DNA of 64,000 bases from the NCBI RefSeq assembly GCF_017348835.2, contig NZ_CP071375.1. The stretch is one strand, 5' to 3'. How positions within the stretch are numbered: position 1 is the first letter of the stretch; every line of letters begins with the position of its first letter. This DNA is from Escherichia coli. GTDB lineage: Bacteria; Pseudomonadota; Gammaproteobacteria; Enterobacterales; Enterobacteriaceae. Shown here piece after piece: positions 9,001 to 12,000 of the stretch. Position numbers: made by a program.

Positions 9001-12000
9001 GCCACACTTATTTTCCAGGCTCGCTTCGGCGGGCCTTTTTTGTATCTGCGCCACGCCCGGCGCATATCAACCACAGAGCCTTTCGGGGGTGAGCTTACGG
9101 AGTGGTCAGTGTGACTTTCTCTGTGGGCAGATCGCTCCCGGGCGTTGGCTCACCCACCCAAAGGAACGTCACGATGTTTGGAATCTTCAAAAAGAAAACC
9201 CGCAGAGCGGCAGCGGAAATTAAAAAGTTTGAGAAACGCGATCTGGCACAGGCGGTGATTAACGCTGCATACCTGGTGGCCTATGCAGATGGTGAATGCG
9301 AGGCATCCGAGAAAGCGAAGATCGAACAGGTCTTACGTAATCAGCCTGCGTTGTCTGCGTTTACCTCGGAAATTAATGCGATTAGCGCAACTATTATCGG
9401 TCAGCTGGATACCAATTTTAAAATTGGTCGTCGTGCCGCGTTACGCGAGAGTGAGGATGTGAAACACGATACGCGTGAAGCGGAAGATGTGCTGGATGTG
9501 GCGGTGGCCATTGCGGAGGCAGACGGCGAAATTGAGCCGGAAGAGCGCAAGGTGCTGGAAGAGATTGCCGGTGTTCTGGGTCTTCGTCTGGAGAATCACC
9601 TGTGACGGTAAAACTGCGCCTGGCTGTGGCTGCACTCCTGCTGTTTCTGGTGGTGATGGTGGATTTCACCAGCAGAATCATGTCGGTGCTGGCGGATGGG
9701 GTGCTGGTCTGCGGCATTGTGGTATTGCTGTGGCCGGTGATAAAAAGAAACAGCCTGCATAATGCTTGATTTTTTTGTTTGCTGTTTATTAAAAACACTT
9801 CTGCATGGTGAATCCCCCTGTGCGGAGGGGCGATCAGCAACCAGGTATATGGGATAATCGCGGATTCAGGTGCTGATACTGAATTCACCGGGAGGCACCC
9901 GGCACCATGCAAGAAAAAGAATGTGCATGCAAACATGCCCCTCTCCGGAGGGGCTTTTTTATGGGTAAAAAATGCCCGAATGGGTTCGGGCAATAGCATG
10001 AGATACTGATATTGTTGTGTTGTTATCGTGTGGATTTTAACCAGGGTTTATCAGGCTGCGCAACTGCGTGGCCTTTTTTCATTTCTTGGGCTGTAGTCCC
10101 CGTGTGTCATTCAGGCTTCCGGACTACAGCCCACTCCATATCTGATTTAATACACTATCCCGGCCGGGAGGAATAATGACATTTAAACATTATGATGTTG
10201 TCAGGGCGGCGTCGCCGTCAGACCTTGCGGAAAAGCTGACACACAAACTGAAAGAGGGCTGGCAGCCATATGGCGGACCGGTTGCCATTACGCCGTACAC
10301 ACTGATGCAGGCGGTGGCTATTGAAGGAGATCCACAGGTCGGCCCTTCATCTGAGCCGGACTGGTTCTACGTGGTTGTGCTTGCCGGACAGTCCAACGGC
10401 ATGGCCTACGGTGAAGGGCTTCCGTTACCGGATTCTTACGATGCTCCGGATCCGCGCATTAAACAGCTGGCGCGCCGCAGCACGGTAACTCCGGGTGGAG
10501 AGAGTTGTACGTATAACGACATCATCCCGGCTGACCACTGTCTGCATGATGTGCAGGATATGAGTACGCTGAATCATCCGAAGGCAGACCTGAGCAAAGG
10601 GCAGTACGGCTGTGTCGGCCAGGGCTTACATATTGCCAAAAAACTGCTTCCGTATATCCCGAATAACGCGGGGATCCTGCTGGTACCATGCTGTCGTGGT
10701 GGTTCGGCATTCACCCAGGGCGCGGAGGGGACATTCAGTGCGGACACGGGGGCCAGCCAGGATTCGGCACGCTGGGGTGTGGGTAAACCGTTATATCAGG
10801 ACCTGATTGCGCGCACTAAAGCTGCATTACAGAAGAACCCGAAAAATGTGTTGCTGGCGGTGTGCTGGATGCAGGGAGAGTTTGACATGAGCGCCGCCAC
10901 CCACGCACAGCAACCTGCGCTGTTTACAGCCATGCTGACACAGTTTCGTGCTGACCTCTCCGTGTTTAACGCGCAGTGCCATGGTGGCAGTGCTGCAGAT
11001 GTGCCGTGGATTTGTGGTGACACGACGTATTACTGGAAAAATACATACGCTACCCAGTACGACACCGTGTACGGCGGGTATAAAAACAGGGAGAGTGAGG
11101 GCGTTTATTTTGTGCCCTTCATGACAGACGGTAACGGTGTCAATACCGCCACTAACGCGCCGGCAGAAGATCCGGATATTCCGGCATCAGGATATTACGG
11201 TGCGGCATCGAGAACGAATGGAAACCAGGTATCATCAAACCGCCCGACACATTTCAGTTCATGGGCGCGCAGGAGCATTATTCCGGATCGTCTGGCAACC
11301 GCTATTCTGAACGCAGCCGGGCGCACCTCAGCCTTCATCAGTGGTAAGGCACCGGAAATCAAACCCTCGCCCGGCGGCAACACGCCATCGGGTCCGTCTG
11401 CAGATACGTCCGTTCGCACAATCTCCCTGCTGCCGGCAGACGGAGAGGCTGCTGCGCAGGGCTGGAGCATTAAGGATGGCGGAATTCAGTTGTCAGATGG
11501 TGTATTTAAGATCACCAAGCAGAGCAATAAAACCTGGTCCCTGACGCATCCGGTGGATGACGCAATTACCCTGCTGACACAGGGCGGCAGACTGACCTGT
11601 AAGTTCCGCCTGTCAGGCGCGCTGACCAACAATCAGTTCGGGCTGGGGATTTATCTGTATACGGATGCTCCCGTTCCTGATGGTGTGGCGATGACGGGTA
11701 CCGGTAATCCGTTCCTGATGTCGTACTTCACTCAGACCACTGACGGCAGAGTGAATCTGATGCATCACAGGAAAGCCGGAAACACGAAGCTGGGGGAGTT
11801 CGGCGATTACGGTAACGACTGGCAGACGCTGGAGCTGGTGTTCACCGCCGGCAGTGCCACGGTTACTCCGAAACTGAATGGAGTGGCTGGCCCGGCATTC
11901 CAGGTTATAAAAGACAGTCTGACACTGGGACTGAATGCGCTGACGCTGACGGATGTTACAAAAAATGCAGCGTATGGCGTTGAGATAGAAAGTCTGGTGC

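What the first reader, a model, noticed from the sequence alone, without database searches (positions are those of the whole stretch)
9967..10033. Candidate minus-strand CA-rich small RNA complementary to the GcvB seed (AgvB-like anti-sRNA)
On the minus strand, a promoter-like TTGCGC-N18-TAAAAT is followed by CCACACGATAACAACACAACAAT and then a clean terminator (TGCCCGAA-ccca-TTCGGGCA-T6). This predicts a ~60-65 nt RNA. The plus-strand segment tgttgtgttgtt (10013-10024) matches the GU-rich R1 seed of GcvB as I remember it, so the predicted RNA would base-pair with GcvB. Prophage-encoded anti-GcvB RNAs have been described in EHEC. I cannot verify from memory whether this locus is one of them.
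Basis: partly seen in the sequence, partly recalled or inferred. Interest (0 to 1): 0.65.

Follow-up and report, generated by a model that had tools for sequence, protein, structure and literature searches.

The report
Known prophage anti-GcvB small RNA AgvB

Summary
Window 10028..9967 (minus strand) matches Rfam family RF02702 (AgvB, "Anti GcvB sRNA") at 96.5 bits against a gathering score of 56. It is identical to the family consensus at 62 of 62 positions. It is also identical to both experimentally studied copies in E. coli O157:H7 Sakai, AgvB1 in prophage Sp10 and AgvB2 in Sp17.

The gene sits where the published work places it. It lies in a lambdoid prophage downstream of the Q antiterminator and a TerB-type moron. 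It converges with an STnc100-type sRNA and lies just upstream of the conserved sialate-esterase gene and the lysis cassette.

AgvB nt 3-16 form 14 contiguous pairs with GcvB nt 71-84, the R1 seed.

One correction is needed. The published primary 5' end is the C at 10028, not 10033, so the RNA is 60-62 nt.

Expression, Hfq binding, GcvB antagonism and a fitness benefit in bovine rectal mucus were shown in the literature for this exact sequence. For the window's own host they are inferred. Novelty: already known. Interest is low.

The parts
9967..10028 (-). agvB gene: the AgvB anti-sRNA. It is 62 nt to the end of the U-run; the RNA seen on northern blots is 60 nt.
   Evidence: Rfam RF02702 at 96.5 bits (GA 56), E 1.8e-18, model positions 1-62 of 62, identical to the consensus. 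It is identical to Sakai Sp10 and Sp17 AgvB. The 5' end is taken from the published RNA sequence, which begins CGAUAAC (PMC4104026 Fig. S4 text); the paper mapped the 5' ends by RLM-RACE.
10013..10026 (-). GcvB-binding seed, AgvB nt 3-16 (AUAACAACACAACA). It contains the GcvB-R1 target consensus CACAACA at nt 10-16.
   Evidence: Cofolding with K-12 GcvB gives 14 contiguous pairs (12 Watson-Crick, one G-U, one A-U) with GcvB nt 71-84, and ddG -16.2 kcal/mol. In the MFE fold the arm is unpaired. Published structure probing also found it single-stranded (bioRxiv 10.1101/2021.04.25.441314).
9995..10007 (-). Small internal hairpin, AgvB nt 22-34 (AGUAUCUCAUGCU). It is part of the 3' module conserved across the anti-sRNA family.
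   Evidence: MFE and centroid fold, the Rfam consensus structure, and near-invariance across the AgvB, Stx1-type and AsxR paralogues.
9967..9992 (-). Rho-independent terminator of agvB: an 8-bp stem (UGCCCGAA/UUCGGGCA), a 4-nt loop and a U6 tail. The tail is also the Hfq proximal-face site.
   Evidence: Terminator scan, fold, and a single copy in the window.
10034..10063 (-). agvB promoter: -35 TTGCGC (10063..10058), 18-nt spacer, -10 TAAAAT (10039..10034). The transcription start lies 6 nt downstream of the -10 hexamer.
   Evidence: The pattern is unique in the window. Both hexamers are invariant in six loci whose RNA 5' arms differ. The paper mapped primary (triphosphate) 5' ends for EcOnc01-03 by RLM-RACE with and without TAP (PMC4104026). 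Promoter activity was not tested here.
9774..9966 (+). Convergent partner sRNA of the STnc100 family. Its terminator (9937-9954 plus T6) ends 6 nt from the AgvB U-tail.
   Evidence: Rfam RF02076 at 145.8 bits (GA 47) and the terminator scan. The same pair is present in Sakai Sp10 and Sp17. The convergent-sRNA layout is described in PMC4104026.
10053..10080 (+). Plus-strand terminator-like hairpin (AGGCTGCGC-AACT-GCGTGGCCT plus T6). It overlaps the agvB -35 region, just upstream of the esterase gene.
   Evidence: Terminator scan. It is conserved in the paralogous loci, with one change in a stem position (A versus G) that by my reading turns a G-U pair into G-C. Its function was not tested.
7787..8608 (+). 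Q antiterminator gene. It defines the late (PR') transcription unit in which the moron site lies.
   Evidence: Pfam PF03589 Antiterm, E 4.7e-50; RefSeq annotation of the 99.9% identical locus.
9174..9769 (+). Moron genes upstream of the sRNA pair: a TerB-family protein (9174-9605) and a DUF3927 protein (9602-9769).
   Evidence: Pfam PF05099, E 2.8e-15, and PF13064, E 4.3e-17; annotation.
10176..12026 (+). Conserved phage ORF downstream of the sRNA pair: a DUF1737/SASA/DUF6645 carbohydrate esterase of the NanS-p/YjhS type. The holin and lysozyme genes follow it.
   Evidence: Pfam PF08410, PF03629 and PF20350; annotation.

Best explanation
The locus is agvB, a stand-alone gene carried in the moron region of a lambdoid prophage.

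Its own sigma-70-type promoter (10063..10034, minus strand) drives a primary transcript of 60-62 nt. The transcript starts at 10028 and ends at the Rho-independent terminator (9992..9967).

The RNA has three parts: an unstructured CA-rich 5' arm, a small hairpin, and a terminator hairpin with a short U tail. Hfq binds the RNA through A-R-N repeats in the arm (distal face) and weakly through the U tail (proximal face). Hfq then helps nt 3-16 anneal to the GU-rich R1 seed of the core-genome sRNA GcvB (nt 71-84).

The arm mimics the CACAACA motif found in GcvB's mRNA targets. The duplex therefore occupies the GcvB seed without destroying GcvB. This relieves GcvB repression of amino-acid and peptide transporter mRNAs such as dppA.

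Shown here: the sequence identity, the RNA architecture, the genomic position, the complementarity to GcvB, and the near-universal presence of the target in E. coli.

Shown in the literature for the identical sequence: expression, Hfq dependence, the primary 5' end, GcvB antagonism with compensatory mutations, in-vivo AgvB-GcvB hybrids, and a fitness effect in bovine rectal mucus.

Inferred: that the same events occur in the host from which this window comes.
For: Identity:
- Rfam RF02702 AgvB at 96.5 bits (GA 56), E 1.8e-18, 62/62 identical to the consensus.
- The window is identical across the RNA and its promoter to Sakai Sp10. Across the RNA and its immediate flanks it is identical to Sakai Sp17.

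Context:
- Gene order is Q, tRNA-Ile/Arg, TerB moron, DUF3927, STnc100 (plus strand), agvB (minus strand), esterase, holin/lysozyme.
- This matches the published layout of convergent sRNAs between a moron CDS and a conserved phage ORF downstream of PR' (PMC4104026).

Family architecture:
- The promoter and the 3' ~42 nt are invariant, while the 5' arm differs between AgvB, the Stx1-phage type and AsxR.

Target:
- The 12-mer is identical to GcvB nt 71-82. There are 14 contiguous pairs with nt 71-84, and cofold ddG is -16.2 kcal/mol with the arm otherwise unpaired.
- gcvB is present in 5425 of 5426 complete E. coli genomes, at >=99% identity in 5389.

Literature on the same sequence:
- A 60-nt northern band, destabilised without Hfq (Table S2).
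- The paper mapped primary 5' ends by RLM-RACE for EcOnc01-03.
- AgvB restores DppA translation in the presence of GcvB. The G1 seed mutation abolishes this, and compensatory GcvB-G1 restores it. A double deletion lowers DppA translation by 32% and lowers fitness in terminal rectal mucus.
- 82 unique AgvB-GcvB hybrids in RNase E CLASH (PMC5286369).
- The 5' arm is single-stranded, and Hfq accelerates annealing (10.1101/2021.04.25.441314).
Against: - Nothing in the window tests expression. The generic sigma-70 scan did not call the promoter; by my count the -35 hexamer matches at only 3 of 6 positions.
- The raw hybridisation energy of the 21-nt arm with GcvB (-19.4 kcal/mol) is not exceptional. 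35 of 2000 shuffles of the arm and many GC-rich 21-mers from the window do as well or better. Energy alone would not have identified the target; the argument rests on identity to a tested molecule.
- The window does not contain gcvB, so the host's R1 sequence was not seen directly. Tree et al. found one laboratory strain with an 8-nt R1 deletion.
- The reported in-vivo effect is modest (32% change in DppA). Biochemistry suggests AgvB is a sub-optimal sponge.
Confidence: 0.93

Rival explanations
1. AgvB acts mainly as a competitor for Hfq. It would displace mRNAs such as dppA from the distal face, or occupy Hfq, rather than titrate the GcvB seed by base pairing.
For: In gel shifts AgvB and the dppA leader displace each other from Hfq. 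AgvB carries A-R-N repeats and was among the most abundant Hfq-bound RNAs recovered (PMC4104026). It contacts both faces of Hfq, like a Class II sRNA.
Against: AgvB has no effect on DppA without GcvB. The 4-nt G1 seed mutation abolishes its effect, and compensatory GcvB-G1 restores it. A stable Hfq-free AgvB-GcvB duplex forms in vitro. 82 AgvB-GcvB hybrids were recovered in vivo. Displacing dppA from Hfq would not by itself explain de-repression that depends on GcvB.
Confidence: 0.05
2. In this prophage the element is only a pair of back-to-back terminators that insulate the moron and STnc100 unit from the esterase and lysis genes. Under this reading the minus-strand RNA is silent or has no function in this host.
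For: Three terminator-like hairpins lie within 140 nt (9937-9954 plus strand, 9992-9973 minus strand, 10053-10074 plus strand). The promoter has a weak -35 hexamer and was not called by the scan. No expression data exist for this window.
Against: The promoter and RNA are base-identical to loci shown to make a very abundant primary transcript in Sakai. The 97-nt promoter-plus-RNA unit is >=99% identical in 619 of the 653 records (651 genomes) that carry it. The promoter hexamers stay invariant while the RNA 5' arm diversifies among paralogues. That pattern is expected for a transcribed, seed-swapping RNA gene, not for a terminator.
Confidence: 0.02
3. The region is the 5' end of a protein-coding gene on the minus strand. 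This would be the 193-aa ORF 9999..9418, annotated as ECs_1960 in the original Sakai record.
For: An ATG at 9999 inside AgvB opens a 193-aa ORF. The old Sakai annotation lists a shorter version as a hypothetical protein.
Against: The ORF has no Pfam match. It runs through the AgvB terminator. It lies antisense to STnc100 and to two Pfam-supported CDSs, TerB and DUF3927. Current RefSeq annotation of identical loci does not call it.
Confidence: 0.01

Closest known systems
AgvB1 / AgvB2 (EcOnc01a/b) of E. coli O157:H7 Sakai prophages Sp10 and Sp17; Rfam RF02702
   Same: The 62-nt RNA sequence is identical to both copies. The promoter is identical to Sp10 in the alignment. The same convergent STnc100-type partner and the same downstream esterase gene are present. 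The upstream TerB/DUF3927 morons are the same as in Sp10.
   Different: The surrounding prophage is a different mosaic. Here there is a 273-aa Q-type antiterminator, and the best genome match is a porcine E. coli, strain PE164, at 99.9% over 24 kb. Sakai Sp10 has a 184-aa antiterminator and Sp17 a different moron. None of these differences touches the RNA gene.
AsxR (EcOnc02), anti-FnrS sRNA of Stx2 phages (933W, Sp5); Rfam RF02703
   Same: Same promoter, same conserved 3' module (small hairpin plus terminator), and the same position and orientation between the moron (there stx2AB) and the esterase gene.
   Different: The 5' arm is different and about 7 nt shorter (UUAUUAAAACG...). It lacks CACAACA and targets FnrS, which it destabilises. 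The window scores only 43 bits against AsxR, whose gathering score is 63.
Stx1-phage / O55:H7-type paralogue
   Same: About 85-89% identical over the promoter plus RNA, in the same position (there downstream of stx1AB or of the tRNAs).
   Different: The 5' arm reads AUAAAAAUGACAAUGCAAG and lacks the CACAACA motif. I found no reported target for it.
SroC, the mRNA-derived GcvB sponge of Salmonella and E. coli
   Same: It is also an Hfq-dependent RNA that antagonises GcvB and de-represses amino-acid transporter mRNAs (PMC4474525 abstract).
   Different: SroC is processed from the core-genome gltIJKL mRNA. It pairs with other GcvB regions and triggers GcvB decay. AgvB is a primary prophage transcript that pairs with R1 and sequesters GcvB without lowering its level.

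Membership tests
AgvB (Rfam RF02702) | Covariance-model match above the curated gathering score over the full model | tested here: met
   96.5 bits against GA 56, E 1.8e-18, model positions 1-62 of 62, no mismatch to the consensus.
AgvB (Rfam RF02702) | Sequence identity to the experimentally defined AgvB1/AgvB2 of E. coli O157:H7 Sakai | tested here: met
   Identical over the RNA in Sp10 (NC_002695.2 about 1941920-1941981) and in Sp17 (about 3486386-3486447). The alignment with Sp10 shows 136 of 136 positions identical, including the promoter.
AgvB (Rfam RF02702) | The 5' variable arm carries the GcvB R1 target consensus CACAACA and is complementary to the GcvB R1 seed | tested here: met
   CACAACA lies at nt 10-16. 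There are 14 contiguous pairs between nt 3-16 and GcvB nt 71-84. The GcvB sequence was taken from NC_000913.3.
AgvB (Rfam RF02702) | Very short RNA (51-60 nt) with a single-stranded 5' arm and a conserved 3' module of about 42 nt ending in a Rho-independent terminator | tested here: met
   The fold has nt 1-21 unpaired, hairpin at 22-34, terminator at 37-56 and a U6 tail, with z = -3.75. The 3' module is conserved across paralogues.
AgvB (Rfam RF02702) | Location in a lambdoid prophage: one of a convergent sRNA pair in the moron site downstream of Q/PR', upstream of the conserved esterase ORF | tested here: met
   Q at 7787-8608, TerB and DUF3927 morons, STnc100 at 9774-9966 (plus strand), agvB (minus strand), esterase at 10176-12026, then holin and lysozyme. 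Published layout.
AgvB (Rfam RF02702) | Expressed as a primary, Hfq-bound and Hfq-stabilised transcript | not testable with these tools
   Shown for the identical sequence in Sakai by Hfq CRAC, a 60-nt northern band, RLM-RACE with and without TAP, and destabilisation in an hfq mutant (PMC4104026). Not measured for the source of this window.
AgvB (Rfam RF02702) | Antagonises GcvB-mediated repression (for example of dppA) by seed pairing | not testable with these tools
   Shown in the literature by a three-plasmid reporter with compensatory G1 mutations, a double deletion, and CLASH hybrids. Here only the complementarity and the near-universal presence of gcvB in E. coli were tested (5425 of 5426 genomes).
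AsxR (Rfam RF02703) | Covariance-model match above the gathering score, with an FnrS-directed 5' arm | tested here: not met
   43 bits against GA 63. The 5' arm differs from that of 933W AsxR. The window's RNA is a paralogue of AsxR, not a member of that family.

The most novel reading that the evidence does not exclude
The prophage's own late transcript may switch AgvB off on induction. The gene lies antisense inside the Q-dependent PR' late transcription unit, between two plus-strand terminators (9937-9954 and 10053-10074). On prophage induction, antiterminated RNA polymerase should read across agvB head-on. This could shut its promoter by transcriptional interference. The late mRNA would also contain a perfect 62-nt complement of AgvB, which could mop up existing AgvB. 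[quoted passage not shown] AgvB would then be a lysogeny-only factor whose anti-GcvB effect is reversed during lytic growth. None of this was tested, and I found no report of it in the papers I read.
Probability: 0.1. Interest if true: 0.4.

Novelty: already known. Interest (0 to 1): 0.08.

Why it matters
AgvB is the founding example of a phage-encoded anti-sRNA. [quoted passage not shown] Finding it here adds no new biology.

Two practical points follow. RefSeq leaves this gene unannotated in every genome record I inspected, although 651 of 5426 complete E. coli genomes carry it. And the closest relative of this window is a porcine diarrhoea isolate, not an O157 strain. The module therefore travels on diverse lambdoid prophage mosaics.

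As a test of the first-stage reader, this is a correct call made from sequence alone.

Tried and rejected
1. Hybridisation energy as independent evidence. duplexfold with full-length RNAs gave a meaningless end-to-end duplex of -41.2 kcal/mol because it ignores intramolecular structure. The 21-nt arm alone scored -19.4 kcal/mol. That is only about 1.5 sd better than random 21-mers from the window (mean -14.3, sd 3.3; GC-rich ones reach -30.8), and 35 of 2000 arm shuffles did as well or better. I rejected energy as a discriminator and kept only the cofold geometry.

2. The generic promoter scan found no sigma-70 site. By my count the -35 hexamer matches at 3 of 6 positions, below the scan's cut-off. 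I relied instead on conservation of both hexamers across paralogues and on the published RACE mapping.

3. An exact 33-nt AgvB pattern had no hit in the GTDB species-representative genomes. A degenerate pattern for the conserved 3' module found only two paralogues. One was an Escherichia sp. contig carrying the Stx1/O55-type arm. The other was an 888-bp contig labelled Xanthomonas pisi that carries a 933W-type AsxR and is probably contamination. I found no evidence for the family outside Escherichia.

4. The 193-aa minus-strand ORF that starts inside AgvB has no Pfam match and lies antisense to real genes. I rejected it as a gene.

5. I first suspected that EcOnc06 of Sp17 (about 177 nt, "5' ECs1961") might be an RNA antisense to AgvB. 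After allowing for the coordinate shift between NC_002695.1 and NC_002695.2, it most likely corresponds to the STnc100-type convergent partner. This remains an inference.

6. Searches were script failures (a missing file and a timeout) and gave no result.

7. Text discrepancies. The machine-read Figure S4 of PMC4104026 prints AgvB three bases shorter (CGATAACACAACAAT...). The Sakai genome and Rfam both read CGATAACAACACAACAAT, and only that version gives the reported 60 nt. I treat the difference as a text-extraction artefact. A 2025 review places AgvB in Sp5. The primary paper and the genome place it in Sp10 and Sp17.
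Full report
**1. Observation**

On the minus strand the window reads TTGCGC (10063..10058), an 18-nt spacer, TAAAAT (10039..10034), and then CCACA-CGATAACAACACAACAATATCAGTATCTCATGCTAT. This is followed by TGCCCGAA-CCCA-TTCGGGCA (9992..9973) and T6 (9972..9967).

- The spaced hexamer pattern occurs once in the 64 kb, with 0.01 expected by chance.
- The terminator was called by the consensus scan and is unique in the window.
- The generic sigma-70 scan did not call the promoter. 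By my count the -35 hexamer matches TTGACA at 3 of 6 positions, below the scan's cut-off, and the -10 hexamer matches at 5 of 6.
- The plus-strand 12-mer TGTTGTGTTGTT (10013-10024) is identical to nt 71-82 of E. coli K-12 GcvB, fetched from NC_000913.3 2942696-2942901.

**2. Identity**

An Rfam scan places family RF02702, "AgvB, Anti GcvB sRNA", at 9967..10028 on the minus strand. The score is 96.5 bits against a gathering score of 56, with E = 1.8e-18. All 62 model positions are covered and every base equals the consensus. The paralogous AsxR model (RF02703) scores 43 bits, below its threshold of 63.

I fetched the two loci of E. coli O157:H7 Sakai in which AgvB was discovered. These are Sp10 (EcOnc01a/AgvB1) and Sp17 (EcOnc01b/AgvB2), listed in Table S2 of PMC4104026. 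Both carry exactly the same 62 nt and score the same 96.5 bits. The window and Sp10 are identical over the 136 aligned positions, which include the promoter.

The published RNA sequence begins CGAUAAC, and the paper mapped these 5' ends by RLM-RACE. With four U's the RNA is 60 nt, which is the size seen on the northern blot.

**3. Anatomy**

Folded alone, the RNA has an unpaired 5' arm (nt 1-21), a small hairpin (nt 22-34), and an 8-bp terminator hairpin (nt 37-56) with a U6 tail. The MFE is -13.7 kcal/mol, with z = -3.75 against dinucleotide shuffles. Published nuclease probing likewise found the 5' arm, the central A-rich region and the GcvB-pairing region single-stranded (10.1101/2021.04.25.441314).

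Cofolding with GcvB leaves both AgvB hairpins intact. It pairs AgvB nt 3-16 with GcvB nt 71-84, giving 14 contiguous pairs (12 Watson-Crick, one G-U, one A-U) and a ddG of -16.2 kcal/mol. The arm contains CACAACA at nt 10-16, the consensus of GcvB R1 mRNA targets quoted by Tree et al..

Raw duplex energy is not discriminating. The arm's -19.4 kcal/mol is only about 1.5 sd better than random 21-mers from the window, and 35 of 2000 arm shuffles did as well or better. The assignment rests on identity to a tested molecule, not on energetics.

**4. Context**

The window's first 24 kb is a lambdoid prophage, 99.9% identical to a prophage of porcine E. coli strain PE164. The gene order is:

- replication genes, hok/sok, RusA
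- Q antiterminator (7787-8608; Pfam Antiterm, E 4.7e-50)
- tRNA-Ile(CAU)/tRNA-Arg(UCU)
- TerB-family moron (9174-9605) and DUF3927 (9602-9769)
- STnc100-type sRNA (9774-9966, plus strand, 145.8 bits)
- agvB (minus strand)
- DUF1737/SASA/DUF6645 esterase (10176-12026)
- holin, lysozyme, Rz, terminase, capsid

This is the arrangement described for the anti-sRNA family: convergent sRNAs between a moron CDS and a conserved phage ORF downstream of the Q-antiterminated PR' promoter (PMC4104026).

**5. Family architecture**

I aligned the window with Sakai Sp10, an O55:H7 locus, an Stx1a phage, an Stx2a phage and 933W (AsxR). The -35 and -10 hexamers and the 3' module (small hairpin plus terminator) are invariant or nearly so. 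The 5' arm is replaced wholesale between types. This matches the published description of a conserved 3' region of about 42 nt with a variable 14-18-nt 5' region. It argues that the promoter is under selection as a promoter.

**6. Distribution**

- The 97-nt promoter-plus-RNA unit occurs in 651 of 5426 complete E. coli genomes. 619 of the 653 matching records are >=99% identical.
- RefSeq annotates nothing at this position.
- Among deposited phage genomes, one record (PPyecE_EH1910) carries the exact unit. Stx1a and Stx2a phages carry the paralogues.
- In the GTDB species representatives, the exact AgvB arm was not found. The conserved 3' module appeared only in an Escherichia sp. contig and in a probable contaminant contig.
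- The target gene gcvB is in 5425 of 5426 E. coli genomes.

**7. Mechanism**

The following were established in the literature for this exact sequence.

- AgvB was the most frequently recovered unannotated Hfq-bound sRNA in EHEC, and it is destabilised without Hfq.
- Co-expression with GcvB restores DppA translation without lowering the GcvB level.
- A 4-nt seed mutation (G1) abolishes this effect, and a compensatory GcvB-G1 restores it.
- Deleting both copies lowers DppA translation by 32% and lowers competitiveness in bovine terminal rectal mucus, but not in laboratory media.
- AgvB competes with the dppA leader for Hfq and forms a stable, Hfq-free duplex with GcvB.
- RNase E CLASH recovered 82 unique AgvB-GcvB hybrids in vivo (PMC5286369).
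- Hfq accelerates annealing. The short U tail makes AgvB a deliberately or accidentally sub-optimal sponge.

The best explanation is therefore target mimicry: AgvB sequesters the GcvB R1 seed. That this operates in the window's host is an inference from the identical gene, the identical promoter and a universally conserved target.

**8. Rivals**

- An Hfq-competition-only mechanism is contradicted by the compensatory mutations and by the dependence on GcvB.
- A "terminators only" reading is contradicted by identity to a highly expressed locus and by promoter conservation across seed-swapped paralogues.
- The 193-aa minus-strand ORF that starts inside AgvB has no family match, crosses the terminator and lies antisense to real genes.

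**9. Verdict**

The feature is an already known, experimentally characterised sRNA, so novelty is "already known" and interest is low.

The only unexplored angle I can see is the relation between agvB and the late transcript that must cross it in antisense during prophage induction. The plus-strand terminator that overlaps the agvB -35 region (10053-10074) belongs to the same question. That angle is speculative.

Noticed in passing
window 9774-9966 (+): A full-length STnc100-family sRNA (RF02076, 145.8 bits) converges on agvB. Its terminator (9937-9954 plus T6) ends 6 nt from AgvB's U-tail. It probably corresponds to the Hfq-bound ~177-nt EcOnc06-type RNA in Table S2 of Tree et al. (described there as '5' ECs1961'). 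I found no reported function for it.
   Followed up: partly
window 10053-10080 (+): A plus-strand terminator-like hairpin plus T6 overlaps the -35 hexamer of the agvB promoter, upstream of the esterase gene. It is conserved in the AsxR and Stx1-type loci, with one change in a stem position that by my reading turns G-U into G-C. Together with the STnc100 terminator it brackets agvB with two plus-strand terminators. Q-modified polymerase would have to read through both.
   Followed up: partly
window 10013-10024 (+), within the PR' late transcription unit: [quoted passage not shown] This could give transcriptional interference, or neutralise AgvB on induction. Not tested.
   Followed up: no
window 8609-8750 (+): Two terminator-like hairpins (8642-8658 and 8689-8708) lie directly after the Q gene and before tRNA-Ile. 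This is the expected place for PR' and its tR' terminator, which in Stx phages yields a short regulatory transcript. The weak, sub-threshold Trp_leader hit at 8609-8715 probably reflects only these hairpins.
   Followed up: no
window 5170-5494 (+): A hok/sok type I toxin-antitoxin module: sok RNA (RF01794, 113.5 bits) at 5170-5344, and a Hok/Gef family CDS at about 5339-5494 in the 99.9% identical PE164 locus.
   Followed up: no
window 9418-9999 (-): A 193-aa ORF starts at an ATG inside AgvB and runs antisense through STnc100, DUF3927 and TerB. It has no Pfam match. A shorter version is annotated as hypothetical protein ECs_1960 in the original Sakai record but is not called by current RefSeq annotation. 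It is probably spurious.
   Followed up: yes
window 10176-12026 (+) versus L010 10176-12028: The esterase ORF is intact in the window (616 aa). It is annotated as frameshifted in the closest genome, PE164 (99.9% identical over 24 kb), so the window is not from that exact assembly.
   Followed up: no
L012 (NZ_JPLE01000080.1, 888-bp contig labelled Xanthomonas pisi DSM 18956), 330-470: This contig carries an AsxR gene and promoter identical, over the stretch aligned, to those of Stx2 phage 933W. It is almost certainly E. coli or Stx-phage contamination in that assembly.
   Followed up: no
L004, L007, L011 (Stx1a phage, O55:H7 DEC5D, Escherichia sp. MOD1-EC7003): A third anti-sRNA paralogue has the 5' arm AUAAAAAUGACAAUGCAAG. 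It has the same promoter and 3' module as AgvB but lacks the CACAACA motif. It lies downstream of stx1AB in Stx1a phages. I found no reported target for it.
   Followed up: partly
Literature: PMC12197685 and supplement 1 of PMC4104026: The 2025 review states that AgvB is encoded by prophage Sp5. The primary paper and the Sakai genome place it in Sp10 and Sp17 (Sp5 carries AsxR). Separately, the machine-read Figure S4 prints AgvB three bases shorter than the genome sequence does.
   Followed up: yes
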